Virus record (IMG/VR): IMGVR_UViG_3300045988_091615
Coordinates: 1-25,518 of that record
From: a virus
Lineage: Duplodnaviria; Heunggongvirae; Uroviricota; Caudoviricetes
Length of the DNA stretch: 25,518 bases
Direction: 5' to 3' (one strand)
The first letter of the stretch is position 1; every line of letters begins with the position of its first letter. A program made the translations under genes and the position numbers. The notes beneath the pieces are model-generated. The model was not told where the DNA came from. It made no database searches and saw nothing but the letters and a program-made list of their open reading frames with translations. Shown in pieces: positions 645-21,488 of this stretch.

Positions 645-916
645 GCATTCGTATTGAAATTGGCGAACGTTATGTGGTTACCAGTGACAGCTTCCAGTTT
701 ATTCTCCACGAGAAAAAGAGAGCGGAAAGCGGTAAAAACGCCGGTCAGGAGTGGCTGGCGGTGGTTGGTTATTACCCGAAATTAAGCCAGCTCGTTTCCG
801 GCCTGATGCATCACGATATTCTGACCGGAAGCGCAAAGTCTTTTGCTGATTTAAACGCGCAGGTTGAGCAACTCAGCAAGCGTTGTTCAGAGGCTTTTGG
901 CTCATATGGCCGTTAA
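641..916 (+). CDS. Hypothetical early-operon protein (91 aa)
   Basis: ATG 641 overlaps the preceding stop. ORF ends TAA 914-916, overlapping the start of gene A. Same orientation and tight coupling as the flanking early genes. Confidence 0.6.
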   Translation: MSIRIEIGERYVVTSDSFQFILHEKKRAESGKNAGQEWLAVVGYYPKLSQLVSGLMHHDILTGSAKSFADLNAQVEQLSKRCSEAFGSYGR

Positions 917-3182
917 AGCCTCCGGGCGTTTTGTCCCTCCGTCAGCATTTGCCGCAGGCACCGGTAAGGCGTTTACCGGTGCTTATGCATGGAACGCGCC
1001 ACGCGAGGCTGTCGGGCGCGAAAGACCTCTTACACGTGACGAGATGCGTCAGGTGCAAGGTGTTTTATCCACGATTAACCGCCTGCCTTACTTTTTGCGC
1101 TCGCTGTTTACTTCACGCTATGACTACATCCGGCGCAATAAAAGCCCGGTGCACGGGTTTTATTTCCTCACATCCACTTTTCAGCGTCGTTTATGGCCGC
1201 GCATTGAGCGCGTGAATCAGCGCCATGAAATGAACACCGACGCGTCGTTACTGTTTCTGGCAGAGCGTGACCACTATGCGCGCCTGCCGGGAATGAATGA
1301 CAAGGAGCTGAAAAAATTTGCCGCCCGTATCTCATCGCAGCTTTTCATGATGTATGAGGAACTCTGCGATGCCTGGGTGGATGCCCATGGCGAAAAAGAA
1401 TCGCTGTTTACGGATGAGGCGCAGGCTCACCTGTATGGTCATGTTGCTGGCGCTGCACGTGCTTTCAATATTTCCCCGCTCTACTGGAAAAAATACCGTA
1501 AAGGACAGATGACCACGAGGCAGGCATATTCTGCCATTGCCCGCCTGTTTAACGATGAGTGGTGGACTCATCAGCTTAAAGGCCAGCGTATGCGCTGGCA
1601 TGAGGCGTTACTGATTGCTGTCGGGGAGGTCAATAAAGACCGTTCTCCTTATGCCAGTAAACATGCCATTCGTGATGTGCGTGCGCGCCGCCAGGCAAAT
1701 CTGGAATTTCTTAAATCGTGTGACCTTGAAAACAGGGAAACAGGCGAGCGCATCGACCTTATCAGTAAGGTGATGGGCAGTATTTCTAATCCTGAAATTC
1801 GCCGGATGGAGCTGATGAACACCATTGCCGGTATTGAGCGTTACGCCGCCGCAGAGGGTGATGTGGGGATGTTTATCACGCTTACCGCGCCGTCAAAGTA
1901 TCACCCGACACGTCAGGTCGGAAAAGGCGAAAGTAAAACCGTTCAGCTTAATCACGGCTGGAACGATGAGGCATTTAATCCAAAGGATGCGCAGCGTTAT
2001 CTCTGCCGTATCTGGAGCCTGATGCGCACGGCATTCAAGGATAATGATTTACAGGTCTACGGTTTGCGTGTCGTCGAGCCACACCACGACGGAACGCCGC
2101 ACTGGCATATGATGCTTTTTTGTAATCCGCGCCAGCGTAACCAGATTATCGAAATCATGCGTCGCTATGCGCTCAAAGAGGATGGCGACGAAAGAGGAGC
2201 CGCGCGAAACCGTTTTCAGGCAAAACACCTTAACCGGGGCGGTGCTGCGGGGTATATCGCGAAATACATCTCAAAAAACATCGACGGCTATGCACTGGAT
2301 GGTCAGTTCGATAACGATACCGGCAGGCCGCTTAAAGATACTGCCGCGGCTGTTACCGCATGGGCGTCAACGTGGCGCATTCCGCAATTTAAAACGGTTG
2401 GCCTGCCGACAATGGGGGCTTACCGTGAACTACGCAAATTGCCTCGTGGCGTCAGCATTGCTGATGAGTTTGACGAACGCGTCGAGGCTGCACGCGCCGC
2501 CGCAGACAGTGGTGATTTTGCGTTGTATATCAGCGCGCAGGGTGGGGCAAATGTCCCGCGCGATTGTCAGACTGTCAGGGTCGCCCGTAGCCCGTCGGAT
2601 GACGTTAACGAGTACGAGGAAGAAGTCGAGAGAGTGGTCGGCATTTACGCGCCGCATCTCGGCGCGCGTCATATTCATATCACCAGAACGACGGACTGGC
2701 GCATTGTGCCGAAAGTTCCGGTCGTTGAGCCTTTGACTTTAAAAAGCGGCATCGCCGCGCCTCGGAGTCCTGTCAATAACTGTGGAAAGCTCACCGGTGG
2801 TGATACTTCGTTACCGGCTCCCACGCCTTCTGAGCACGCCGCAGCAGTGCTTAATCTGGTTGATGACGGTGTTATCGAATGGTATGACCCGGAGGTCGTG
2901 AGGGCGCTCAGGGGCGCATTAAAACACGGCCTGAGAAGACCAAACCGTCAGCAAAGAAACGGAAGCCCGTTAAAACCGCATGAAATAGCGCCATCGGCCA
3001 GACTGACCCGGTCGGAAAGAATGCAAATTACCCGTATCCGCGTTGACCTTGCTCAGAACGGTATCAGGCCTCAGAGATGGGAGCTTGAGGCGCTGGCGCG
3101 TGGCGCGACTGTAAATTACGACGGTAAAAAATTCACGTATCCGGTCGCTGATGAGTGGCCGGGATTCACAATGGACCATTGA
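906..3182 (+). CDS. A: Rolling-circle replication initiation endonuclease, P2 gpA family
   Basis: Long ORF with the characteristic GpA motifs (HWHMMLF; AGYIAKYISKNIDGY with catalytic tyrosines). First ATG is at 906 with GAGG upstream; the ORF-track start at 864 is a TTG. From 906 the product is 758 aa, close to the ~761 aa I recall for P2 A. Confidence 0.9.
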   Translation: MAVKASGRFVPPSAFAAGTGKAFTGAYAWNAPREAVGRERPLTRDEMRQVQGVLSTINRLPYFLRSLFTSRYDYIRRNKSPVHGFYFLTSTFQRRLWPRIERVNQRHEMNTDASLLFLAERDHYARLPGMNDKELKKFAARISSQLFMMYEELCDAWVDAHGEKESLFTDEAQAHLYGHVAGAARAFNISPLYWKKYRKGQMTTRQAYSAIARLFNDEWWTHQLKGQRMRWHEALLIAVGEVNKDRSPYASKHAIRDVRARRQANLEFLKSCDLENRETGERIDLISKVMGSISNPEIRRMELMNTIAGIERYAAAEGDVGMFITLTAPSKYHPTRQVGKGESKTVQLNHGWNDEAFNPKDAQRYLCRIWSLMRTAFKDNDLQVYGLRVVEPHHDGTPHWHMMLFCNPRQRNQIIEIMRRYALKEDGDERGAARNRFQAKHLNRGGAAGYIAKYISKNIDGYALDGQFDNDTGRPLKDTAAAVTAWASTWRIPQFKTVGLPTMGAYRELRKLPRGVSIADEFDERVEAARAAADSGDFALYISAQGGANVPRDCQTVRVARSPSDDVNEYEEEVERVVGIYAPHLGARHIHITRTTDWRIVPKVPVVEPLTLKSGIAAPRSPVNNCGKLTGGDTSLPAPTPSEHAAAVLNLVDDGVIEWYDPEVVRALRGALKHGLRRPNRQQRNGSPLKPHEIAPSARLTRSERMQITRIRVDLAQNGIRPQRWELEALARGATVNYDGKKFTYPVADEWPGFTMDH

Positions 3183-3291: not shown

Positions 3292-4623
3292 ATGAACAAT
3301 AACAGTAAGAAAACTTTGAGTAAGAAAAGAACCAAGAAAGCCAAAAAGAAGTCGCTTACCCCTGAACAAAAAGCATTGCAAGCAGAACAAGCAGCAAAAA
3401 AAGCGCAAATTATAGAGAATAGGCGCTCTATTACAGCTCATGCTATTAATCTTTTTCAGCAATATACAGCACTCCGTAAAAAAGGATTAGATAGTTCCAC
3501 TGCTACTTTGCAAGCTTATGCTGATTATGAAAAAGTACATGGACATAAATTCCTTAGTTCTGTCTCTATGTGGACAAAAATCAAAACTGAAGCAGGGATT
3601 CGGATCTATGATCTTGAGAGACAAGATAGCCGTAAATCGCTTAATCTTGCTAAGATTCCGACCCGTTTAGAGGCTAAGCGTAGTGTACTGACACAGAACC
3701 AAAAGAAAGTACATAACCAGAATGCAAATACATTACGCTTAATCGGTGGCAAAAAGCTACCTGTAACATCTATGGGGCTTATTGTATGCCCTGTCTGCGA
3801 GATACATATAAAAGATAGTGCTATAGAGTGGCATTTACGACACAACCACGTAGATCATGTAGATAACCCGTTTACTAACCCTATAGTAGCTCCTATTGAT
3901 ACCTTAGAAGAGACTGTAGAAATACGTGATCTACTAATTGGTGATAAAACACTTCCGATTAAATCTAGTACTATTAATATGGGGAGTTACAAGAAAGATA
4001 AACGTTATTTTAATAAGCAAGTTTATCAAACGGCATTGCTAACAATGACACAATCAGAAGCGTGGAAACTCGCGACTGATGAAGAATCTAGTATGACTTT
4101 TTTAAGCAATCAGTACATAAGTCCATTAACATCACCCGAACCCAATAATGAAATATCTCTTATCATGGATGGAACGGATATAGCCATTAATGAAAGTCTA
4201 ACTAATCCTTTCAAGGCCGCAAACGATACCTGTGCTACAGGACGAACAGTCGAGGTTACTCACAAAGTCCGTCATGCTGGAGATCAAGCTGATTTCAAAC
4301 GCCGTGTTTGGGATAACTTCAATGGCAGATGTGCTATTACTGGCTATCCATTGCCAGAGGGGATATTGGAAGCCGCACATATTGAAGCAATAACAGAATC
4401 AGCAAATAATAACACATCTAATGGCCTGTTACTTGAAGTAAGTTTACACCGAATGTTTGATAAAGGATTAATGGGGATTAATCCAGAGGACTTAACGGTT
4501 CATTTCTCTATTAATTGTATCCACAAAACTATGTTTGAGGGTAAAACTCTACAACCGCATCATGTAGAACTTGATGCTGGGAAGTTGATGACAAAATGGA
4601 AAAAGTTCCATGATAAGCGTTAA
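3292..4623 (+). CDS. Cargo protein with C-terminal HNH_2-type nuclease domain, internal C2H2-like zinc-finger motif and Lys-rich N-terminus (candidate defence effector)
   Basis: 443-aa ORF, ATG 3292 with AAGG 8 nt upstream, markedly AT-rich. C-terminus carries the HNH_2 signature GRCAITG...EAAHIEA...SNGLLLEVSLHRMFDKG. Mid-protein CPVCEIHIKDSAIEWHLRHNH resembles a C2H2 finger. N-terminal ~45 aa are highly basic (KKTLSKKRTKKAKKK...). Confidence 0.8.
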   Translation: MNNNSKKTLSKKRTKKAKKKSLTPEQKALQAEQAAKKAQIIENRRSITAHAINLFQQYTALRKKGLDSSTATLQAYADYEKVHGHKFLSSVSMWTKIKTEAGIRIYDLERQDSRKSLNLAKIPTRLEAKRSVLTQNQKKVHNQNANTLRLIGGKKLPVTSMGLIVCPVCEIHIKDSAIEWHLRHNHVDHVDNPFTNPIVAPIDTLEETVEIRDLLIGDKTLPIKSSTINMGSYKKDKRYFNKQVYQTALLTMTQSEAWKLATDEESSMTFLSNQYISPLTSPEPNNEISLIMDGTDIAINESLTNPFKAANDTCATGRTVEVTHKVRHAGDQADFKRRVWDNFNGRCAITGYPLPEGILEAAHIEAITESANNNTSNGLLLEVSLHRMFDKGLMGINPEDLTVHFSINCIHKTMFEGKTLQPHHVELDAGKLMTKWKKFHDKR

Positions 4624-4650
4624 CATGACTTCTTCTGGTGCAGAGAGGCG

Positions 4651-4679
4651 TTAGATTTAATTATGTATTATGATTTAAT
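4651..4679 (+). promoter_or_regulatory. Possible sigma70-like promoter for the second cargo gene
   Basis: TTAGAT (4651-4656), 17-nt spacer, TTTAAT (4674-4679) in the AT-rich 91-bp gap between the two cargo ORFs. Weak match, by eye only. Confidence 0.2.
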
Positions 4680-4714
4680 TTTGGGTGTGATTTGTTATAT
4701 GGGGAATAGATTAT

Positions 4715-5134
4715 ATGGTGACGCTTGATATGGTTTATTGGAAATTTGGTTATGCTTCGGAAGCAGCTCAATTACTGGAGACTGAGTTGATAAATGTTAT
4801 CACTGAGTATGATATGAGTCAGGGGAAAGATATACAGTCGCTGAAAAAACAGTTTTTAGAAATGGATAAATACACGCTGGGTAAATTGAATTACGCACTG
4901 AAGTCTAGGATGGTGGAGGATGCTGATACACTGGAGTATGTGTCAGATGCTCTTAAAGCCAGAAACTACTTGGCACATGATTTTTTTCGCGCTCATAATT
5001 TTGCCAAAGATACCCCAGCAGGACGGCAAAAAATGCTTGATGATTTACAAAAAACACACAACATTATTTTTGAGGCATACCGGAAAGTACTGCTAATTAG
5101 TGGCATCAAAATTCCACCTTTAGAAGATGATTAG
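4715..5134 (+). CDS. Small cargo protein (139 aa) with RNxxxH motif; possible HEPN-like RNase or partner/immunity protein
   Basis: ATG 4715 (alternative ATG at 4730), GGGGA 9 nt upstream, AT-rich, co-oriented with the HNH ORF. Contains KARNYLAHDFF, which fits the HEPN Rx4-6H (RNxxxH) signature. A short motif only. Confidence 0.65.
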   Translation: MVTLDMVYWKFGYASEAAQLLETELINVITEYDMSQGKDIQSLKKQFLEMDKYTLGKLNYALKSRMVEDADTLEYVSDALKARNYLAHDFFRAHNFAKDTPAGRQKMLDDLQKTHNIIFEAYRKVLLISGIKIPPLEDD

Positions 5135-5449: not shown

Positions 5450-6484
5450 TCAGCCGTTGTCAGTGTCCAGTGAGTAGTTTTTAAAGCGGATGACCTCCTG
5501 ACCGAGCCAGCCGTTTATCTCGCGGATCCTGTCCTGTAACGGGATAAGCTCATTGCGGACAAAGACCTTTGCCACTTTCTCAATATCACCCAGCGACCCG
5601 ACGTTCTCCGGCTTGCCGCCCATCAACTGAAAGGGGATGCGGTGCGCGTCCAGCAGGTCAGCGGCGCTGGCTTTTTTGATATTAAAAAAATCGTCCTTCG
5701 TTGCCACTTCACTGAGCGGGATAATTTTAATGCCGTCAGCTTTCCCCTGCGGGGCATAGAGAAACAGGTTTTTAAAGTTGTTGCGGCCTTTCGACTTCAC
5801 CATGTTTTCGCGGAGCATTTCGATATCGTTGCGATCCTGCACGGCATCGGTGACGTACATGATGTATCCGGCATGCGCGCCGTTTTCGTAATACTTGCGG
5901 CGGAACAGCGTGGCCGACTCATTCAGCCAGGCAGAGTTAAGGGCGCTGAGATATTCCGGCAGGCCGTACAGCTCCTGATTAATATCCGGCTCCAGCAGGT
6001 GAAACACGGAGCCGGGCGCGAAAGGTGTCGGCTCGTTGAAGGACGGCACCCACCAGTAAACATCCTCTTCCACACCACGGCGGGTATATTTTGCCGGTGA
6101 GGTTTCCAGTCTGATGACCTTACCGGTGGTGCTGTAACGCTTTTCCAGAAACGCATTACCGAACACCAGAAAATCCAGCACAAAGCGGCTGAAATCCTGC
6201 TGGGAAAGCCACGGATGCGGGATAAATGTCGAGGCCAGAATATTACGTTTGACGTAAATCGGTGAGCTGTGATGCACGGCAGCACGCAGGCTTTTTGCCA
6301 GACCGGTAAAGCTGACCGGTGGCTCATACCATCTGCCGTTACTGATGCATTCGACGTAATCCAGAATGTCACGGCGGTCGAGTACCGGCACCGGCTCACC
6401 AAAGGTGAATGCCTCCATTTTCGGGGCGCTGGTGGTCATTGTTTTTGCCGCAGGTTGCGGTGTTTTCCCTTTTTTCTTGCTCAT
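5450..6484 (-). CDS. Q: Portal protein, P2 gpQ family
   Basis: 344 aa, the same length I recall for P2 Q, and recognisable as P2 portal sequence. Its ATG overlaps the P stop by one base (ATGA). Confidence 0.9.
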   Translation of the reverse strand: MSKKKGKTPQPAAKTMTTSAPKMEAFTFGEPVPVLDRRDILDYVECISNGRWYEPPVSFTGLAKSLRAAVHHSSPIYVKRNILASTFIPHPWLSQQDFSRFVLDFLVFGNAFLEKRYSTTGKVIRLETSPAKYTRRGVEEDVYWWVPSFNEPTPFAPGSVFHLLEPDINQELYGLPEYLSALNSAWLNESATLFRRKYYENGAHAGYIMYVTDAVQDRNDIEMLRENMVKSKGRNNFKNLFLYAPQGKADGIKIIPLSEVATKDDFFNIKKASAADLLDAHRIPFQLMGGKPENVGSLGDIEKVAKVFVRNELIPLQDRIREINGWLGQEVIRFKNYSLDTDNG

Positions 6485-9342: not shown

Positions 9343-10416
9343 ATGCGCCAGGAAACCCGCTTTAAATTTAATGCCTACCTGTCCCGTGTTGCCGAACTGA
9401 ACGGCATCGACGCCGGTGATGTGTCGAAAAAATTCACCGTTGAACCGTCGGTCACCCAGACCCTGATGAACACCATGCAGGAGTCCTCTGACTTTCTGAC
9501 CCGCATCAACATTGTGCCGGTCAGCGAAATGAAAGGGGAAAAAATTGGTATTGGTGTCACCGGCTCCATCGCCAGCACCACCGACACCGCCGGTGGCACC
9601 GAGCGTCAGCCGAAGGACTTCTCGAAGCTGGCGTCAAACAAGTACGAATGCGACCAGATTAACTTCGATTTTTATATCCGCTACAAAACGCTTGACCTGT
9701 GGGCGCGTTATCAGGATTTCCAGCTCCGTATCCGTAACGCCATTATCAAACGCCAGTCCCTTGATTTAATCATGGCCGGTTTTAACGGCGTGAAGCGTGC
9801 CGAAACCTCTGACCGCAGCAGCAATCCGATGCTGCAGGATGTGGCAGTCGGCTGGCTGCAGAAATACCGCAATGAAGCCCCGGCGCGCGTGATGAGCAAG
9901 GTTACTGACGAGGAAGGCCGCACCACCTCTGAGGTTATCCGCGTGGGTAAGGGCGGTGATTATGCCAGCCTTGATGCACTGGTGATGGATGCGACCAACA
10001 ACCTGATTGAGCCGTGGTATCAGGAAGACCCTGACCTTGTGGTGATTGTGGGGCGTCAGCTACTGGCGGACAAGTATTTCCCCATCGTCAACAAGGAGCA
10101 GGACAACAGCGAAATGCTGGCCGCTGACGTCATCATCAGCCAGAAACGCATCGGTAACCTGCCGGCGGTACGCGTCCCGTACTTCCCGGCGGATGCGATG
10201 CTCATCACGAAGCTGGAAAACCTGTCCATCTACTACATGGATGACAGCCATCGCCGCGTGATTGTGGAAAACCCGAAACTCGACCGCGTGGAGAACTACG
10301 AGTCAATGAACATTGATTACGTGGTGGAAGACTACGCCGCCGGTTGTCTGGTGGAAAAAATCAGGGTCGGTGATTTCTCCACACCGGCTAAGGCGACCGC
10401 AGAGCCGGGAGCGTAA
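9343..10416 (+). CDS. N: Major capsid protein, P2 gpN family
   Basis: 357 aa, AGGA upstream of ATG 9343. Translation (MRQETRFKFNAYLSRVAELNG...) recognisable as P2-type major capsid protein. Confidence 0.92.
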   Translation: MRQETRFKFNAYLSRVAELNGIDAGDVSKKFTVEPSVTQTLMNTMQESSDFLTRINIVPVSEMKGEKIGIGVTGSIASTTDTAGGTERQPKDFSKLASNKYECDQINFDFYIRYKTLDLWARYQDFQLRIRNAIIKRQSLDLIMAGFNGVKRAETSDRSSNPMLQDVAVGWLQKYRNEAPARVMSKVTDEEGRTTSEVIRVGKGGDYASLDALVMDATNNLIEPWYQEDPDLVVIVGRQLLADKYFPIVNKEQDNSEMLAADVIISQKRIGNLPAVRVPYFPADAMLITKLENLSIYYMDDSHRRVIVENPKLDRVENYESMNIDYVVEDYAAGCLVEKIRVGDFSTPAKATAEPGA

Positions 10417-13748: not shown

Positions 13749-14178
13749 TGCCGTCACGGTGCTGAAAACTAACCCCGAGATGCTGCGGATATTCGTGGAT
13801 AACGGGAGTATTGCCTCCACGCTGGCGGCGTCGTTGTCATTCGAAAAGCGTTACACGCTCAATGTCATTGTGACCGACTTTACCGGTGATTTTGACCTGC
13901 TCATTGTGCCGGTGCTGGCGTGGCTGCGGGAAAATCAGCCCGACATCATGACCACCGACGCAGGCCAGAAAAAGGGCTTCACGTTTTATGCAGACATCAA
14001 CAATGACAGCAGCTTTGATATCAGCATCAGCCTGATGCTGACCGAGCGCACGCTGGTCAGTGAGGTGGACGGCGCGCTGCATGTGAAGAATATCCCGGAA
14101 CCCCCGCCGCCGGAGCCGGTCAACCGCCCGATGGAGCTTTATATCAATGGCGAACTGGTGAGCAAGTGGGATGAATGA
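13711..14178 (+). CDS. R: Tail completion protein, P2 gpR family
   Basis: 155 aa, matching P2 R length and position. Confidence 0.85.
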   Translation: MLKPDSLRRALTDAVTVLKTNPEMLRIFVDNGSIASTLAASLSFEKRYTLNVIVTDFTGDFDLLIVPVLAWLRENQPDIMTTDAGQKKGFTFYADINNDSSFDISISLMLTERTLVSEVDGALHVKNIPEPPPPEPVNRPMELYINGELVSKWDE

Positions 14179-14623
14179 GTTTAAGCGTTTTGAAGACCGG
14201 CTGACCGGACTGATTGAATCGCTGTCACCGTCAGGGCGTCGGCGACTGAGTGCCGAACTGGCGAAACGTCTGCGGCAGAGTCAGCAGCGTCGGGTGATGG
14301 CTCAGAAAGCCCCCGACGGCACACCCTACGCACCACGCCAGCAGCAGAGCGCCAGAAAAAAGACCGGTCGTGTTAAGCGAAAAATGTTTGCGAAACTTAT
14401 CACCAGTCGTTTTTTGCATATCCGCGCCAGCCCGGAACAGGCATCAATGGAATTTTACGGCGGGAAGTCGCCGAAAATCGCCAGTGTGCATCAGTTCGGT
14501 CTGTCGGAAGAAACCCGGAAAGACGGTAAGAAAATTGATTATCCGGCGCGTCCTCTGCTCGGCTTTACCGGTGAGGATGTGCAGATGATTGAAGAGATTA
14601 TCCTGGCTCACCTTGAGCGTTAG
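14171..14623 (+). CDS. S: Tail completion protein, P2 gpS family
   Basis: 150 aa; start overlaps the R stop; matches P2 S length and position. Confidence 0.85.
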   Translation: MNEFKRFEDRLTGLIESLSPSGRRRLSAELAKRLRQSQQRRVMAQKAPDGTPYAPRQQQSARKKTGRVKRKMFAKLITSRFLHIRASPEQASMEFYGGKSPKIASVHQFGLSEETRKDGKKIDYPARPLLGFTGEDVQMIEEIILAHLER

Positions 14624-14653
14624 TTTTATCCAGGCAGAGGCTGATGCGCAATT

Positions 14654-14688
14654 AAACATTGAGCGGCCATGCTGGTCGCTCAATGTTT
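14654..14688. terminator. Strong hairpin between convergent S and the S-V cargo gene (possible bidirectional terminator)
   Basis: Perfect 12-bp inverted repeat AAACATTGAGCG (14654-14665) / CGCTCAATGTTT (14677-14688) with an 11-nt loop, 31 nt after the S stop and 7 nt after the stop of the minus-strand cargo gene. T-tract weak on both strands. Confidence 0.5.
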
Positions 14689-14694
14689 AGAGGT

Positions 14695-15480
14695 TTATGA
14701 GTGATTTTTATTTGATGCTTTGTATTCTAAAACCTTCTTATTGGCGTAAAAGAATTTTGTATATGACAGGAATATAACCAGACCTGAAGTGAAATAGACG
14801 AGGGATAGTATTAATAATGCTTTTTTGTGACTGTTATTATCTTTAATCTCCTGGCTTAACCATTCGGAGTCCTCCTCGTTTAGCTGTAAGAGCTTATTGC
14901 AGGCGATCTCAGGAAGTGTGTCTTTTATAAATACGTTTCGTAGCCTCTTGCAATCGGCAAGGCTATAAGTTTTATTGAATTCAACTGTTTTATTGTTGAA
15001 GGATAAAAGAACTTTGTCACTATAAACATAGTACATCATATTTTTATATGGTATGCCTATGGCATCTCTTACTATAGCGGATTGTTTGTTGTGTATATAA
15101 CATGCGAGGAGAATGTAAAAAATACTGGCCAGAATTACAATTATTGTTTTAATTATGTGTGGTGGTTTTGTTATGTCACCCCAGATGCGAGTAAGGAAAA
15201 AATACGATGTTTTTAGTTTTCCATCAATCAGTCCCTGCTGTATCATTCTCACATTTTCAATGCCTGATACATTGATTCCGTTAATTATTTTAAATAGTTG
15301 AATGTCGCGCCACTCGCGGTCAAGTCTTTTTAATTTTTTGTCTGAATATCCAAAATTGAAATAATGTGCAATAAGCCTCATAAGGTTACTTTTACCAAAG
15401 CTAAAAAATGCTAATACTGCAAAGCTACAAAGGAAAAAAACGATTAGCCCCCACACATTAGTCACATTATAGCTGACCAT
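14695..15480 (-). CDS. Cargo: predicted three-helix membrane protein (261 aa), unknown function
   Basis: Minus-strand ORF with a strong RBS (AAGGAG 6 nt upstream of the ATG ending at 15480), very AT-rich. Three hydrophobic stretches (VWGLIVFFLCSFAVLAFFSF; IIKTIIVILASIFYILLACYI; ALLILSLVYFTSGLVIFLSY). Inserted in opposite orientation between S and V. Confidence 0.8.
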   Translation of the reverse strand: MVSYNVTNVWGLIVFFLCSFAVLAFFSFGKSNLMRLIAHYFNFGYSDKKLKRLDREWRDIQLFKIINGINVSGIENVRMIQQGLIDGKLKTSYFFLTRIWGDITKPPHIIKTIIVILASIFYILLACYIHNKQSAIVRDAIGIPYKNMMYYVYSDKVLLSFNNKTVEFNKTYSLADCKRLRNVFIKDTLPEIACNKLLQLNEEDSEWLSQEIKDNNSHKKALLILSLVYFTSGLVIFLSYTKFFYANKKVLEYKASNKNHS

Positions 15481-15563
15481 TACGCTCTCCTTGAATGTTG
15501 TCTGGTAGTTCTACAAATGAATCCAGATAGCATAACTTTTATATATTGTGCAATCTCACATGC

Positions 15564-16199
15564 ATGAACACTCTCGCAAATATTCAGGAACTCGCGCGCG
15601 CACTGCGCAACATGATTCGCACCGGCATTATCGTCGAAACCGACCTTAACGCCGGTCGCTGCCGTGTGCAGACCGGCGGCATGTGCACTGACTGGCTTCA
15701 GTGGCTGACCCATCGTGCCGGTCGTTCGCGCACATGGTGGGCACCTTCCGTGGGGGAGCAGGTGCTGATTCTGGCCGTGGGCGGTGAACTCGACACGGCG
15801 TTCGTTCTGCCGGGGATTTATTCCGGCGATAACCCCTCGCCGTCTGTGTCGGCGGATGCCCTGCATATCCGTTTCCCTGACGGGGCGGTGATTGAATATG
15901 AACCCGAAACCAGTGCACTCACGGTAAGCGGAATTAAAACGGCCAGCGTGACGGCTTCTGATTCTGTTACTGCCACGGTGCCGGTGGTCATGGTGAAAGC
16001 ATCAACCCGCGTCACCCTGGACACCCCGGAGGTGGTCTGCACCAACAGGCTGATTACCGGCACGCTGGAAGTGCAGAAGGGCGGGACGATGCGCGGCAAC
16101 ATTGAACACACCGGCGGTGAACTCTCATCAAACGGTAAGGTACTGCATACCCATAAACACCCCGGCGACAGCGGCGGCACAACCGGGAGTCCTTTATGA
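15564..16199 (+). CDS. V: Baseplate assembly/spike protein, P2 gpV family
   Basis: ATG 15564 gives 211 aa (MNTLANIQELARALRNMIRTG...); the track start at 15546 is a TTG. Stop overlaps the W start (ATGA). Confidence 0.88.
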   Translation: MNTLANIQELARALRNMIRTGIIVETDLNAGRCRVQTGGMCTDWLQWLTHRAGRSRTWWAPSVGEQVLILAVGGELDTAFVLPGIYSGDNPSPSVSADALHIRFPDGAVIEYEPETSALTVSGIKTASVTASDSVTATVPVVMVKASTRVTLDTPEVVCTNRLITGTLEVQKGGTMRGNIEHTGGELSSNGKVLHTHKHPGDSGGTTGSPL

Positions 16200-17986: not shown

Positions 17987-19996
17987 ATGAGCACGAAATT
18001 TAAAACCGTTATCACCACTGCCGGTGCAGCAAAGCTGGCAGCGGCAACCGCGCCGGGAGGGCGGAAGGTCAACATTACCACGATGGCCGTCGGGGATGGC
18101 GGTGGTAAATTGCCTGTCCCGGATGCCGGACAGACCGGGCTTATCCACGAAGTCTGGCGACATGCGCTGAACAAAATCAGCCAGGACAAACGAAACAGTA
18201 ATTATATTATCGCAGAGCTGGTTATTCCGCCGGAGGTGGGCGGTTTCTGGATGCGTGAGCTTGGCCTGTACGATGATGCTGGAACGTTAATTGCCGTGGC
18301 GAACATGGCCGAAAGTTATAAGCCAGCTCTTGCCGAAGGCTCAGGGCGTTCGCAGACCTGTCGCATGGTCATCATCGTCAGCAGTGTGGCCTCAGTGGAG
18401 CTGACCATTGACACCACAACGGTGATGGCGACGCAGGATTACGTTGATGACAAAATTGCAGAACATGAACAGTCACGACGTCACCCGGACGCCTCGCTGA
18501 CCGCAAAAGGTTTTACTCAGTTAAGCAGTGCGACCAACAGCACGTCTGAAACACTGGCCGCAACGCCGAAAGCGGTAAAGGCCGCGTATGACCTGGCTAA
18601 CGGGAAATATACCGCACAGGACGCCACCACAGCGCGAAAAGGCCTTGTCCAGCTCAGTAGTGCCACCAACAGCACGTCTGAAACGCTCGCCGCAACACCA
18701 AAAGCCGTTAAGACGGTAATGGATGAAACGAACAAAAAAGCGCCATTAAACAGCCCTGCACTGACCGGAACGCCAACGACGCCAACTGCGCGACAGGGAA
18801 CGAATAATACTCAGATCGCAAACACGGCTTTCGTTATGGCCGCGATTGCCGCCCTTGTAGACTCGTCGCCTGACGCACTGAATACGCTGAACGAGCTGGC
18901 GGCGGCGCTGGGCAATGACCCGAATTTTGCTACCACCATGACTAATGCGCTTGCGGGTAAGCAACCGAAAGATGCCACTTTGACGGCGCTGGCGGGGCTT
19001 GCTACTGCGGCAGACAGGTTTCCGTATTTTACGGGGAATGATGTTGCCAGCCTGGCGACCCTGACAAAAGTCGGGCGGGATATTCTGGCTAAATCGACCG
19101 TTGCCGCCGTTATCGAATATCTCGGTTTACAGGAAACGGTAAACCGAGCCGGGAACGCCGTGCAAAAAAATGGCGATACCTTGTCCGGTGGACTTACTTT
19201 TGAAAACGACTCAATCCTTGCCTGGATTCGAAATACTGACTGGGCGAAGATTGGATTTAAAAATGATGCCGATGGTGACACTGATTCATACATGTGGTTT
19301 GAAACGGGGGATAACGGCAATGAATATTTCAAATGGAGAAGCCGCCAGAGTACCACAACAAAAGACCTGATGACGTTGAAATGGGATGCACTAAATATTC
19401 TTGTTAATGCCGTCATTAATGGCTGTTTTGGAGTTGGTACGACGAATGCACTAGGTGGTAGCTCAATTGTTCTTGGTGATAATGATACCGGATTTAAACA
19501 GAATGGAGACGGTATTCTTGATGTTTATGCTAACAGTCAGCGAGTATTCCGTTTTCAGAATGGAGTGGCTATTGCTTTTAAAAATATTCAGGCAGGGGAT
19601 AGTAAAAAGTTCTCGCTATCCAGCTCTAACACATCCACGAAGAATATTACCTTTAATTTATGGGGTGCTTCCACCCGTCCAGTGGTTGCAGAGTTAGGCG
19701 ATGAGGCCGGATGGCATTTCTATAGCCAGCGAAATACAGATAACTCGGTAATATTTGCTGTTAACGGTCAGATGCAACCCAGCAACTGGGGGAATTTTGA
19801 TTCCCGCTATGTGAAAGATGTTCGCCTGGGTACGCGAGTTGTTCAATTGATGGCGCGAGGTGGTCGTTATGAAAAAGCCGGACACACGATTACCGGATTA
19901 AGAATCATTGGTGAAGTGGATGGCGATGATGAAGCCATCTTCAGGCCGATACAAAAATACATCAATGGCACATGGTATAACGTTGCGCAGGTGTAA
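17987..19996 (+). CDS. H: Tail fibre protein, P2 gpH family, with AT-rich C-terminal receptor-binding region
   Basis: 669 aa. N-terminal part is GC-rich P2-like; it contains tandem phage-tail-fibre repeats (QLSSATNSTSETLAATPKAVK twice). From about 19150 onward the composition drops to ~40% G+C, suggesting an exchanged distal module. Confidence 0.9.
   Translation: MSTKFKTVITTAGAAKLAAATAPGGRKVNITTMAVGDGGGKLPVPDAGQTGLIHEVWRHALNKISQDKRNSNYIIAELVIPPEVGGFWMRELGLYDDAGTLIAVANMAESYKPALAEGSGRSQTCRMVIIVSSVASVELTIDTTTVMATQDYVDDKIAEHEQSRRHPDASLTAKGFTQLSSATNSTSETLAATPKAVKAAYDLANGKYTAQDATTARKGLVQLSSATNSTSETLAATPKAVKTVMDETNKKAPLNSPALTGTPTTPTARQGTNNTQIANTAFVMAAIAALVDSSPDALNTLNELAAALGNDPNFATTMTNALAGKQPKDATLTALAGLATAADRFPYFTGNDVASLATLTKVGRDILAKSTVAAVIEYLGLQETVNRAGNAVQKNGDTLSGGLTFENDSILAWIRNTDWAKIGFKNDADGDTDSYMWFETGDNGNEYFKWRSRQSTTTKDLMTLKWDALNILVNAVINGCFGVGTTNALGGSSIVLGDNDTGFKQNGDGILDVYANSQRVFRFQNGVAIAFKNIQAGDSKKFSLSSSNTSTKNITFNLWGASTRPVVAELGDEAGWHFYSQRNTDNSVIFAVNGQMQPSNWGNFDSRYVKDVRLGTRVVQLMARGGRYEKAGHTITGLRIIGEVDGDDEAIFRPIQKYINGTWYNVAQV
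18518..18712 (+). repeat. Tandem in-frame 63-nt tail-fibre repeat units (period 132 nt) inside H
   Basis: Unit 18518-18580 and unit 18650-18712 are ~80% identical at nucleotide level and encode the same 21-aa motif. Consistent with the phage tail-fibre repeat family (Pfam Phage_fiber_2, as I recall). Confidence 0.8.
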
Positions 19997-19999
19997 GTT

Positions 20000-20527
20000 A
20001 TGCAGCATTTAAAGAACATTAAGTCAGGTAATCCAAAAACAAAAGAGCAATATCAGCTAACAAAGAATTTTGATGTTATCTGGTTATGGTCCGAAGACGG
20101 AAAAAACTGGTATGAGGAAGTGAAGAACTTTCAGCCAGACACAATAAAGATTGTTTACGATGAAAATAATATTATTGTCGCTATCACCAGAGATGCTTCA
20201 ACGCTTAATCCTGAAGGTTTTAGCGTTGTTGAGGTTCCTGATATTACCTCCAACCGACGTGCTGACGACTCAGGTAAATGGATGTTTAAGGATGGTGCTG
20301 TGGTTAAACGGATTTATACGGCAGATGAACAGCAACAACAGGCGGAATTACAGAAGGCAGCTTTGCTTTCCGAAGCTGAATCCGTAATTTTGCCGCTGGA
20401 GCGCGCTGTCAGGCTGAATATGGCAACAGATGAGGAACGCAGCCGACTGGAAGCATGGGAACGCTACAGCGTTCTGGTCAGTCGTGTGGATCCTGCAAAT
20501 CCTGAATGGCCGGAAATGCCACAATAA
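20000..20527 (+). CDS. G: Tail fibre assembly chaperone, P2 gpG / Tfa family
   Basis: 175 aa, ATG 4 nt after the H stop, AT-rich like the H C-terminus. Typical Tfa position and size. Confidence 0.85.
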
Positions 20528-20717: not shown

Positions 20718-21488
20718 TTACTCTTTAGCTCGTTTGGTCATCTCATTTGCTAACTGTGTAGACCAATAATGTTGACTCTTTGCTTCTAATATGAAAAGTA
20801 GCGCTCTCACACATTGTAGCTGAGCATGCACATAAGCATGAATATTACCAACTGAAGTAGGAACTAAGTGGGTTTCAGGTGTGTAGTAGTGGTAGATGCT
20901 CGTTTGTGAAGGATGAACATATTCGCTAAGTATGTCATAAGTCAGTTCAAAATCACTTTCCATCTGATTAGTCTGCTTCATCTCATCTTTATAGAGTTCG
21001 CGTAAAGCAGTCATCACATGCATACTGACAGCAAGTAGGTTTTCAAAACGATATTTAGCCTCCTCAGTAAACATGTAGTCGTTCGGGTCAAATACTCCTT
21101 TCTGAATCTTTTCTTGCTCTGACTTTTTAAATCGAGAACTATTCGTAAAGTTCAATATAACTTCGATAGCGTTATCTACACTTGCGTGGCCATTTTGGGT
21201 AGTCAAAATTTTCTCTACTTTCTTGTTTAAGAGTCGTGAGAAGGCATGAGTTTCAATCATTCCTCGGCTAACAATACAAGCGCTTTGGTATCGTTCGTTT
21301 TCGAGGAGGAGAAGCGCATCATCGAAGATGTCTATCTGCCTGTTCATAAGTAAATTGGCATAATTAACGAGATACAGTCCGCGGTCAGGGTTATGTGTTT
21401 TTTCGACAATTACACCATTAGTCTTGCTCAGCGCAGCTCTGGCGGCTTTTGCCTCATTCAGTCTCTGTTCTATAAGTTCTTTATACAT
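20718..21488 (-). CDS. Cargo: hypothetical soluble protein (256 aa), unknown function, at the P2 Z/fun position
   Basis: Minus-strand ORF, AAGGA upstream of the ATG ending at 21488, AT-rich, opposite orientation to the flanking G and FI. No domain recognised. Contains an Rx5H stretch (SRGMIETH), which is too loose to call HEPN. Confidence 0.8.
   Translation of the reverse strand: MYKELIEQRLNEAKAARAALSKTNGVIVEKTHNPDRGLYLVNYANLLMNRQIDIFDDALLLLENERYQSACIVSRGMIETHAFSRLLNKKVEKILTTQNGHASVDNAIEVILNFTNSSRFKKSEQEKIQKGVFDPNDYMFTEEAKYRFENLLAVSMHVMTALRELYKDEMKQTNQMESDFELTYDILSEYVHPSQTSIYHYYTPETHLVPTSVGNIHAYVHAQLQCVRALLFILEAKSQHYWSTQLANEMTKRAKE

What the first reader, a model, noticed from the sequence alone, without database searches (positions are those of the whole stretch)
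14624..15563. Oppositely oriented AT-rich membrane-protein gene inserted between tail genes S and V
Seen in sequence: a 261-aa minus-strand ORF (14695-15480) with a strong AAGGAG RBS, much lower G+C than the flanking tail genes, and three predicted transmembrane helices (N-terminal, central, C-terminal). A perfect 12-bp-stem hairpin sits between it and S. Only 83 bp separate its start from the V start, so its promoter and the late V promoter must be back to back. Inference: a moron expressed from the prophage independently of late genes. Membrane-protein morons in temperate phages are often superinfection-exclusion or abortive-infection factors. I recall P2 carrying a non-essential low-GC ORF (orf30) at this S-V position, which would make this a third swap locus, but I am not certain of that.
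Basis: partly seen in the sequence, partly recalled or inferred. Interest (0 to 1): 0.65.

Follow-up and report, generated by a model that had tools for sequence, protein, structure and literature searches.

The report
Phage P2 orf30 membrane-protein cargo gene
This is the long-known but never explained gene orf30 of phage P2, an optional membrane-protein gene that sits in a swappable slot between two tail genes where related phages carry anti-phage defence genes, so it probably helps the lysogen fend off other phages, though nobody has shown this.

Summary
A 261-aa minus-strand ORF (14695-15480, 34% G+C against 54-60% in the flanks) lies between tail genes S and V. It has an AAGGAG ribosome-binding site, three transmembrane helices and a strong hairpin next to S.

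It is phage P2's annotated gene orf30 ('nonessential'). The segment is 98% identical to P2, so the gene and the variable S-V locus are already known.

- The family is small, confined to Enterobacterales, and a divergent branch of Pfam DUF6216.
- Homologs only 20-25% identical sit in the same S-V slot, divergent from V, in P2-like prophages of Serratia, Yersinia, Pectobacterium and Sodalis.
- Alleles diverge far faster than the flanks (45% against 90-94% identity; dN/dS 0.4-0.6 against 0-0.2).
- Among 78 close P2 relatives the slot is empty in 53 and holds orf30 in 16. In 9 it holds other AT-rich cargo, including a Pycsar cyclase, a RelA/SpoT protein and an ATPase-TIR protein.

Best reading: an autonomous inner-membrane accessory protein acting in inter-phage competition, most likely envelope-level exclusion. 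No known exclusion or defence family matches, no clear promoter was found, and function is untested. Interest is moderate to low.

The parts
14624..15563 (.). S-V cargo cassette (940 bp, 35% G+C). It replaces the 66-bp S-V spacer found in orf30-less P2 relatives.
   Evidence: Homology to L-413C breaks right after the S stop codon and resumes at the V ATG. G+C is 0.351. The interval is 939 or 940 bp in 16 of 78 IMG/VR P2 loci and 66 bp in 53.
14695..15480 (-). orf30 coding sequence: a 261-aa protein with three transmembrane helices, belonging to PHROG 2407 and to a divergent branch of DUF6216.
   Evidence: ORF list. The 1.4-kb segment is 98.1% identical to P2, where this CDS is annotated orf30, 'nonessential'. 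PHROG 2407 at E 2e-148. dN/dS is 0.4-0.6 with all 261 codons intact in six alleles. AlphaFold model pLDDT 84.5.
15487..15492 (-). Ribosome-binding site AAGGAG, 6 nt upstream of the orf30 ATG.
   Evidence: Read directly from the sequence. AAGGAG in 5 of 7 alleles and GAGGAG in the other 2.
14653..14689 (.). Hairpin with 17-nt arms and a 3-nt loop, between the convergent 3' ends of S and orf30. It is a putative terminator of the late O operon and possibly also of orf30.
   Evidence: Inverted repeat I3. Fold of -30.3 kcal/mol, z -4.2. Annotated in P2 as 'putative rho-independent terminator for O operon'. The U-tract is weak on the + strand and absent on the - strand.
15495..15522 (+). Ogr/activator binding site of the late V promoter. 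It lies inside the orf30 5' region, 2 nt beyond the orf30 ribosome-binding site.
   Evidence: Coordinates transferred from the P2 annotation 10239-10266. A TGTTGT half-site is kept about 65-70 nt upstream of V in most alternative cassettes examined, with TTGTGCC and GTTGTA variants in two.
15524..15552 (-). Best but weak sigma-70-like candidate promoter for orf30: TGCACA, 17-nt spacer, TG-n-TATCTG.
   Evidence: My own scoring gives 4/6 and 3/6 hexamer matches plus a TG. The standard scan found nothing in the spacer. This is a candidate only.
14171..14623 (+). Tail completion gene S, the left flank of the slot and the last gene of the late O operon.
   Evidence: ORF list. P2 annotation.
15564..16199 (+). 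Baseplate spike gene V, the right flank of the slot and the first gene of the late V operon.
   Evidence: ORF list. P2 annotation. V homologs flank family members in Serratia, Yersinia, Pectobacterium and Sodalis prophages.

Best explanation
Shown: the feature is phage P2's accessory gene orf30, carried as a 940-bp AT-rich cassette in the S-V slot of a P2-like prophage.

The slot is a swap locus that is usually empty. When it is filled, it holds either an Orf30-family gene or one of several unrelated single-gene cargos, some of which match anti-phage defence families.

Inferred anatomy of Orf30: an inner-membrane protein with a short periplasmic N-terminus and three TM helices.
- Between TM1 and TM2 lies a roughly 78-aa basic helical cytoplasmic domain. 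It carries the family's most conserved motif, D-x-Q-L-F-[KR]-x2-N-G-I-N-V.
- Between TM2 and TM3 lies a roughly 88-aa periplasmic alpha/beta domain with two family-wide cysteines, probably forming a disulfide.
- A long helix runs into TM3, followed by a short basic cytoplasmic tail.

Inferred mechanism, not shown: the protein is made in the lysogen and works on its own, without other P2 genes. It acts at the cell envelope in competition with other phages. The most likely mode is that its periplasmic and membrane parts interfere with genome entry by superinfecting phages (superinfection exclusion). Rapid allele turnover would then reflect different target phages.
For: Identity and slot:
- 98.1% identity to P2 across S-orf30-V, with the orf30 annotation.
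- Presence/absence polymorphism: 459 E. coli complete genomes carry it out of 1,571 that match the flanks. In IMG/VR the slot is 53 empty, 16 orf30 and 9 other.

Slot cargo points to defence:
- PycC Pycsar cyclase at E 1e-128.
- RelA_SpoT protein matching candidate family PDC-S33.
- AAA+TIR_2 and AAA proteins matching candidate family PDC-S59.
- Burkholderia P2-like phages carry an OLD-like gene (KS5) or a DNA methylase (KL3) there (PMC3091744).

Association with P2-like phages:
- Nine further family members were traced to P2-like prophages of Serratia, Yersinia, Pectobacterium and Sodalis or to P2-like viral contigs. Seven lie in the S-V slot next to V and an eighth lies beside V in a decayed prophage remnant. 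One more lies next to the portal gene, on the side of the main P2 defence hotspot.

The protein works autonomously:
- An intact copy persists as a stand-alone 36% G+C islet in many Enterobacter cloacae chromosomes, with no V or S remnants.
- It also persists in decayed prophage remnants in S. rubidaea and E. coli B.

Fast, constrained evolution:
- Alleles are 45% identical between S and V genes that are 90% and 94% identical.
- dN/dS is 0.4-0.6 against 0-0.2 for R, S, V and W.
- Variable sites concentrate in TM1, TM2 and the inter-TM2/3 domain.

Topology:
- The N-terminus has no K or R. Loop 1 has a net charge of +5.6 and the C-tail +2.1.
- Loop 2 carries the only two conserved cysteines, present in 35/36 and 36/36 members.

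Some Serratia loci have an extended -10 element (TGCTACAAT) upstream of the homolog.
Against: - No convincing promoter in the E. coli/P2 version, and the late activator site overlaps the orf30 leader. Expression in the lysogen is therefore unproven.
- A functional selection against T4, lambda-vir and T7 recovered seven systems in P2-like prophages, all at the two other hotspots (PMC9519451).
- From memory: the classical P2 exclusion phenotypes are all assigned to old, tin and fun.
- Guilt by location is indirect. The same slot also holds a methylase and cargo of unknown function.
- The topology and the disulfide are predictions.
Confidence: 0.4

Rival explanations
1. Abortive-infection effector. 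Orf30 forms an oligomeric membrane channel or pore that stays closed in healthy lysogens. Its cytoplasmic domain senses an infection cue and opens the channel, which collapses the membrane potential and kills the infected cell before the phage completes its cycle.
For: - Most identifiable alternative cargos of the slot are typical abortive-infection enzymes: Pycsar cyclase, RelA/SpoT toxin-like protein and ATPase-TIR.
- The most conserved motif lies in the predicted cytoplasmic domain.
Against: - The CorA signature GMN is absent from the sequence.
- No oligomer evidence exists.
- Known single-protein membrane Abi systems were not matched in PADLOC.
Confidence: 0.2
2. A host-directed lysogenic-conversion factor unrelated to phages. 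The membrane protein would alter envelope physiology, for example stress tolerance or resistance to colicins, tailocins or host factors. It would be kept because it benefits the bacterium.
For: - A stand-alone copy is conserved between housekeeping genes in many Enterobacter cloacae genomes.
- It is retained in decayed prophages.
- Another P2 cargo slot carries neaT, a virulence-linked acyltransferase (PMC3573123).
Against: - The family is otherwise almost confined to P2-like phages and their cargo slots.
- The alleles turn over much faster than expected for a housekeeping envelope function.
- No similarity to any known envelope-modifying family.
Confidence: 0.15
3. A late-expressed helper of P2's own cycle, for example tuning lysis or preventing re-injection into lysing cells. 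It would be co-regulated with the V operon through the shared Ogr site and would not be a prophage-expressed gene.
For: - It is always immediately divergent from V wherever it occupies the S-V slot.
- The 83-bp spacer is almost invariant among alleles whose coding regions differ by 6-13% at nonsynonymous sites.
- No independent consensus promoter was found in the P2 version.
- The lysis genes lie just upstream of R and S.
Against: - About two thirds of otherwise near-identical P2 relatives lack it, including viable phages such as L-413C.
- It is annotated as nonessential.
- The Ogr site centre lies only about 28 bp from the orf30 ATG, the wrong geometry for activation in that direction.
- It survives without any phage genes in E. 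cloacae.
Confidence: 0.12
4. A decaying or functionless hitch-hiker ORF that is merely tolerated in a permissive intergenic site.
For: - It is nonessential and absent from most relatives.
- dN/dS is raised compared with neighbouring genes.
- No known domain was found in the window protein.
Against: - dN/dS stays well below 1, and all six alleles compared codon by codon keep exactly 261 codons.
- Full-length homologs of 250-270 aa, with conserved motifs and two conserved cysteines, persist across at least six genera at 20-25% identity.
- A confident fold is predicted.
Confidence: 0.03

Closest known systems
Bacteriophage P2 orf30 (AF063097 / NC_001895, protein AAD03281; PHROG 2407)
   Same: It is the same gene. 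The segment is 98% identical in DNA. The position between S and V, the orientation, the 261-aa length, the hairpin and the 83-bp spacer with the V-promoter activator site all match.
   Different: Only a few point differences. The window's allele is closest (99.4%) to phages vB_EcoM-12474II-V. No function is recorded for any of them.
Pfam DUF6216 (PF19723), an uncharacterised proteobacterial membrane-protein family
   Same: The Sodalis S-V-slot homolog passes the DUF6216 gathering score over its full length (28.9 bits against 27.3). Ten of 36 family members give weak hits. Length and collinearity match.
   Different: The window protein itself gives no DUF6216 hit, so the link is transitive. DUF6216 has no known function and no literature.
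P2 defence and cargo hotspots: TO region (old, tin) and Z/fun region
   Same: AT-rich, optional, rapidly swapped cargo between conserved phage genes, often single genes and often anti-phage. The S-V slot shows the same behaviour and holds Pycsar, RelA/SpoT and ATPase-TIR genes in some relatives. It is listed as the third variable locus in PMC3091744.
   Different: The S-V slot is usually empty (68%). One family, Orf30, dominates when it is filled. Recent hotspot surveys (PMC9122126, PMC9519451, bioRxiv 10.1101/2024.10.15.618418) do not treat it.
Single-gene membrane superinfection-exclusion proteins (T4 Imm and Sp, P22 SieA, HK97 gp15, lactococcal Sie2009)
   Same: A prophage- or phage-encoded, stand-alone cytoplasmic-membrane protein with an exposed extracytoplasmic part. 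It is optional, AT-rich moron-like cargo (comparison from general knowledge; topology).
   Different: No sequence or structural similarity was detected. Orf30 is larger, with two folded soluble domains on opposite sides of the membrane. No exclusion phenotype is known.
CorA / ZntB / Mrs2 divalent-cation channels
   Different: Identity is 4-8%. There is no GMN motif. The TM number and predicted sidedness differ. The scores are close to generic helical noise.

Membership tests
P2 Orf30 / PHROG 2407 | Full-length sequence match to P2 Orf30 | tested here: met
   PHROG 2407 at E 2e-148 over residues 1-261 of 261. The DNA is 98.1% identical to P2 across the gene.
P2 Orf30 / PHROG 2407 | Location between tail genes S and V, transcribed opposite to them | tested here: met
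   Window ORF map compared with the P2 annotation.
Pfam DUF6216 (PF19723) | Score at or above the Pfam gathering threshold | tested here: inconclusive
   The window protein gives no hit even at E<=1. Homolog P0029 (E 5.6e-14 to the Orf30 profile) passes with 28.9 against 27.3 bits over its full length. Membership is therefore only transitive.
Moron (autonomous cargo unit in a prophage) | Composition unlike the backbone, and presence/absence among close relatives | tested here: met
   34% against 54-60% G+C. The site is empty in 53 of 78 relatives and in most of the 1,571 matching E. coli genomes.
Moron (autonomous cargo unit in a prophage) | Own terminator | tested here: inconclusive
   A strong hairpin lies 5 nt past the stop codon, but there is no U-tract on the orf30 strand. 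Serratia homologs overlap S and have no hairpin.
Moron (autonomous cargo unit in a prophage) | Own promoter active in the lysogen | tested here: inconclusive
   No site passes the consensus scan in the spacer. The best candidate is weak. Serratia loci do show TGCTACAAT. Transcription itself cannot be tested with these tools.
Known anti-phage defence systems (PADLOC-DB 2.0) | Match to any defence-protein model | tested here: not met
   0 families at E<=1.
Superinfection-exclusion proteins | Cytoplasmic-membrane location | tested here: met
   Three hydrophobic 19-residue windows scoring above 2.2. They are helical in a model with pLDDT 84.5. This is prediction only.
Superinfection-exclusion proteins | Blocks entry of superinfecting phage DNA without killing the cell | not testable with these tools
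   Requires plating, adsorption and DNA-entry assays.
Superinfection-exclusion proteins | Homology to a characterised exclusion protein | tested here: not met
   No Pfam, PHROG-function, PDB or BFVD match.
CorA / MIT channel superfamily | GMN signature after the first pore helix, and two C-terminal TM helices | tested here: not met

The most novel reading that the evidence does not exclude
Orf30/DUF6216 is a previously unrecognised single-protein anti-phage system of the inner membrane, working by exclusion or by abortive channel opening. It would be the main tenant of a third, overlooked defence slot (S-V) of P2-like phages. Its hyper-divergent alleles would each target different invading phages.
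Probability: 0.4. Interest if true: 0.6.

Novelty: already known. Interest (0 to 1): 0.35.

Why it matters
P2 is a textbook phage, and about 8% of complete E. coli genomes (459 of 5,426) carry this gene. Yet orf30 has had no function since it was sequenced in the 1990s.

If it proves to be an envelope-level anti-phage protein, three things follow:
- A new single-gene defence family (DUF6216) would be added.
- S-V would be defined as a third defence slot that recent P2 hotspot surveys passed over.
- It would explain why this one family is kept beside the baseplate promoter across several genera.

If it has no phage phenotype, the stand-alone Enterobacter copy points to an envelope function worth finding. 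Either way the claim can be tested with simple cloning and plating experiments.

Tried and rejected
Searches on the window protein that found nothing:
- Pfam, NCBIfam and PADLOC gave nothing usable.
- PDB sequence searches with a 6-sequence and a 36-sequence profile gave only noise.
- Foldseek against viral structures gave nothing at E<=0.001.
- The AFDB library was unavailable.

Attempts to extend the family or find context that failed:
- The search for related loci with the family alignment failed because no stretch was conserved enough.
- A word-indexed search from the DUF6216-positive homolog found only itself.
- tblastn of one distant homolog against GenBank phages found nothing. Two others found only the P2 group, all annotated 'hypothetical'.

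Literature:
- No paper assigns a function to P2 orf30, DUF6216 or WP_000490543.
- Casjens & Grose 2016 could not be read.
- neaT of CFT073 was checked as a possible S-V cargo, but it lies in the Z/fun slot.

Other checks:
- The NCTC9040/R18C-type S-V gene was tested for family membership. It is unrelated, soluble, and has no Pfam or PADLOC hit.
- No Rfam family or tRNA lies in the window.
- A lipoprotein reading of the N-terminus was rejected: there is no lipobox, and that cysteine is not conserved.
- Co-evolution with the adjacent spike V was rejected: V is 94% identical where Orf30 alleles are only 45% identical.
Full report
**1.

The minus-strand ORF 14695-15480 encodes 261 aa from an ATG. 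AAGGAG lies 6 nt upstream of that ATG. The ORF is 33.8% G+C, against 54.1% for S, 59.7% for V and 52.3% for the window. The composition profile shows a sharp trough confined to about 14600-15600.

Three 19-residue hydrophobic windows stand out, at about 9-29, 108-131 and 220-241. Between the convergent ends of S and the ORF lies an inverted repeat with 17-nt arms (14653-14669 and 14673-14689), 94% complementary, with a 3-nt loop. It folds far better than shuffled sequence, with z -4.2 and 0 of 200 shuffles as stable.

V begins at 15564 (MNTLANIQ...), so 83 bp separate the two divergent start codons.

**2. What it is**

The 1.4-kb segment is 98.1% identical to bacteriophage P2 and 99.4% identical to phages vB_EcoM-12474II-V. 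The P2 record annotates the following:
- the ORF as orf30, 'nonessential';
- the hairpin as a putative rho-independent terminator of the late O operon;
- a 28-bp activator (Ogr) binding site for the V promoter inside the 83-bp spacer, equivalent to window 15495-15522.

The rest of the window is a P2-type prophage. It contains replication gene A, portal, lysis genes, R, S, V, W, J, I, H and tail-fibre assembly.

P2 relatives such as L-413C, pro483 and fiAA91-ss lack the gene and have only 66 bp between S and V. Homology breaks immediately after the S stop codon and resumes at the V ATG. These points match the finding's coordinates.

**3. The gene is real and under selection**

Six alleles from E. 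coli and Yersinia-propagated Peduovirus phages all keep 261 codons. Pairwise dN/dS for orf30 is 0.4-0.6, or 0.2-0.3 for the two closest pairs. For R, S, V and W it is mostly 0.0-0.2. Nonsynonymous divergence in orf30 is 5-15 times that of the flanks, and dS is also higher.

Variable residues concentrate in TM1 (67% of sites), TM2 (50%) and the domain between TM2 and TM3 (34%). The first soluble domain (23%) and the C-tail (15%) are more conserved.

**4. The family**

A word-indexed search found only five clusters, all enterobacterial. An exhaustive HMM search of 1.84 billion representatives found 44 representatives, and the 23 that match over nearly the whole profile are 249-271 aa long. Named members come from Escherichia, Yersinia, Serratia, Pectobacterium, Enterobacter and Sodalis, and all are annotated 'hypothetical'.

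The alignment shows these conserved features:
- an N-terminal TM helix ending in GG;
- the motif D-x-Q-L-F-[KR]-x2-N-G-I-N-V-x4-D-A;
- a second TM helix;
- a beta-rich segment;
- the motif A-C-x-Y-L;
- a long helix that becomes the third TM helix.

Only two cysteines are conserved, in 35/36 and 36/36 members, and both lie between TM2 and TM3.

The window protein hits no Pfam family. However, 10 of 36 relatives give weak DUF6216 hits, and the Sodalis homolog passes the gathering score over its full length. Orf30 is therefore a divergent branch of DUF6216. I found no literature on that family.

**5. Predicted structure and topology**

With 36 sequences, AlphaFold gives pLDDT 84.5 and pTM 0.74. 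The elements, in order, are:
- TM1;
- a helical domain (residues 29-93);
- TM2 (108-133);
- four short strands plus two helices (140-197);
- one 59-residue helix (201-259) containing TM3.

Across the family the short N-terminus carries no K or R, the first loop has a net charge of +5.6 and the C-tail +2.1. The second loop is neutral and carries the cysteine pair.

By the positive-inside rule, and given the usual periplasmic location of structural disulfides, I infer the following topology: N-terminus out, loop 1 cytoplasmic, loop 2 periplasmic, C-terminus in. This is a prediction. I could not read model coordinates to check the Cys-Cys distance.

**6. Genomic context of relatives**

This is the most informative result.
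- Homologs only 20-25% identical to the window protein lie between V and S, divergent from V and 113-165 bp from its start. This holds in P2-like prophages of Serratia nevei, S. ureilytica, S. quinivorans, a Logan Serratia-like contig, Yersinia, Pectobacterium and Sodalis, and in two IMG/VR contigs.
- In Serratia rubidaea a decayed remnant keeps V, the homolog, an S fragment and ogr.
- E. coli B's defective P2 keeps an intact copy.
- Every copy is 32-38% G+C inside a 53-60% G+C backbone. The low G+C is therefore a persistent property of the family and does not mark a recent arrival.
- Flank and cargo are decoupled. Two Serratia prophages with V 94% and S 90% identical carry homologs only 45% identical. 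Window against Serratia gives V 63-67% but Orf30 21-23%.
- Exceptions exist. A stand-alone 36% G+C islet sits between peptidase-U32 and yegS genes in many Enterobacter cloacae chromosomes, with no V or S remnants. One copy lies directly downstream of a P2-type portal gene, on the side of the main P2 defence hotspot. One lies upstream of R in a divergent P2-like phage. One sits on short contigs beside dsbA.

The protein therefore does not need neighbouring P2 genes, and it moves among P2 cargo sites.

**7. The slot**

In 5,426 complete E. coli genomes, 1,571 match the flanks and 459 carry orf30. Most of the listed remainder show the 527-bp span that corresponds to an empty site.

| S-V interval in 78 IMG/VR loci with V >=95% identical | Loci |
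|---|---|
| 66 bp (empty) | 53 |
| 939 or 940 bp with an Orf30-family ORF | 16 |
| Other AT-rich cargo (34-38% G+C), at least seven kinds | 9 |

The other cargo types are:
- a Pycsar cyclase PycC (PADLOC E 1e-128, with an AGS_C sensor domain);
- a RelA_SpoT protein (Pfam E 2e-21; PADLOC candidate PDC-S33);
- an AAA+TIR_2 protein and an AAA protein (both PDC-S59);
- a Cys-rich 251-aa protein;
- a 357-aa protein with two TM helices;
- the 247-aa soluble protein also present in E. coli NCTC9040. It matches in size and position the ORF described in phage R18C (PMC6823313).

Published work places an OLD-like gene (phage KS5) and a DNA methylase (phage KL3) at this slot in Burkholderia P2-like phages. 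It also names orf30, Z/fun and the TO region as the three loci where foreign genes accumulate (PMC3091744). Recent hotspot studies discuss the other two loci, or a cI-proximal one, but not S-V.

Most alternative cassettes examined retain a TGTTGT Ogr half-site about 65-70 nt upstream of V, and two carry close variants (TTGTGCC, GTTGTA). Cargo exchange therefore preserves the late V promoter.

**8. Regulation**

In the window and in P2, the activator site begins 2 nt beyond the orf30 ribosome-binding site. Any orf30 promoter must therefore overlap the V promoter or lie inside V. The consensus scan finds nothing there. My lenient scoring finds only TGCACA-17-TGnTATCTG.

The spacer is almost invariant among seven alleles, which is expected because it also holds the V promoter. 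Four of five Serratia loci have a good extended -10 element (TGCTACAAT or TGCTAATAT) between the Ogr half-site and the ribosome-binding site. Prophage-independent expression is thus plausible for the family but unproven for this copy.

**9. Interpretation**

Shown:
- identity with P2 orf30;
- optional cargo in a genuine swap slot;
- a selected, fast-evolving, P2-associated family of three-TM proteins;
- the slot's other tenants include defence genes;
- the protein can persist alone.

Inferred:
- the topology;
- the disulfide;
- a role in phage-phage competition.

I favour envelope-level exclusion for three reasons. Stand-alone membrane proteins with an exposed domain are the typical form of exclusion factors. 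The protein has no enzymatic or sensor partner. The variable parts are the membrane and predicted periplasmic regions.

An abortive channel, a host-directed envelope function and a late phage helper remain open. A functionless ORF is unlikely.

Evidence against a defence role:
- there is no homology to any known system;
- no clear promoter was found;
- the gene was not recovered in the T4, lambda-vir and T7 functional selection;
- classical P2 genetics assigns the known exclusions to old, tin and fun (from memory).

**10. Verdict**

The feature is already known as an entity, and its locus is already recognised as variable. Its function is an open question, though a modest one.

- the link to DUF6216;
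- the cross-genus conservation of position combined with extreme allele divergence;
- the evidence that S-V is a defence-gene slot;
- a concrete, testable model.

Interest is moderate to low.

Noticed in passing
window 3292-5134: Between replication gene A (864-3182) and the portal gene (5450-6484, minus strand), P2 carries old and tin. This prophage instead has a 35-41% G+C block encoding a 443-aa HNH_2 protein (Pfam E 8e-11; PADLOC HNH models) and a 139-aa ORF with no hits. It is probably a different defence cargo in hotspot 1.
   Followed up: partly
window 20718-21488 (minus strand): The Z/fun slot, between tail-fibre assembly gene G (20000-20527) and the sheath gene, holds an oppositely oriented 256-aa DUF5677 protein at about 39-40% G+C. 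It has no PADLOC hit.
   Followed up: partly
window ~19000-20500: G+C drops to 41-47% across the 3' part of tail-fibre gene H and gene G. This is consistent with a swapped host-range module.
   Followed up: no
L095, L085, L043, L084 (IMG/VR P2-like contigs), S-V interval: The same slot carries a full-length Pycsar cyclase PycC, a RelA/SpoT (toxSAS-like) protein, an AAA+TIR protein and an AAA protein in different P2 relatives. The Pycsar cargo interval (2,030 bp) showed no obvious effector ORF of 50 aa or more beside the cyclase.
   Followed up: partly
L018 5001-5765 (Enterobacter cloacae chromosome): An Orf30-family gene sits alone as a 36% G+C islet between a peptidase-U32 gene and yegS. No V or S homologs were detectable anywhere in the 10.8-kb locus, and the arrangement recurs in at least 24 contigs.
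   Followed up: partly
L009 66-752 and 991-1743: A distant family member (P0017) lies divergent from a DsbA-like thioredoxin gene on short 40% G+C contigs of unknown origin. This is notable because the family has a conserved cysteine pair.
   Followed up: no
L019 5800-7440 (Pectobacterium prophage): Here the S-V slot is expanded. Besides the Orf30 homolog next to V, it holds an ORF6N-domain gene and two small ORFs.
   Followed up: no
L001 2663 (P2 record 10308) = window 15564: The P2 record places the V-operon transcription start at the first base of the V start codon. That would make the V mRNA leaderless, or else the annotation is approximate.
   Followed up: no
L022 1-4163 (E. coli B): E. 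coli B's defective P2 prophage has lost the genes from portal to S, leaving a portal fragment fused to an S fragment. It keeps orf30 and the baseplate and tail-fibre genes downstream to the edge of the locus. An 'ABC-three component system' plus an AAA ATPase sit just outside the portal remnant.
   Followed up: no
L003 8779-8801; L006 5776-5804; L021 5794-5804: In Serratia and Sodalis prophages the Orf30 homolog's 3' end overlaps the 3' end of S by 11-29 bp, convergently. There is therefore no room for the hairpin terminator seen in the E. coli cassette.
   Followed up: no
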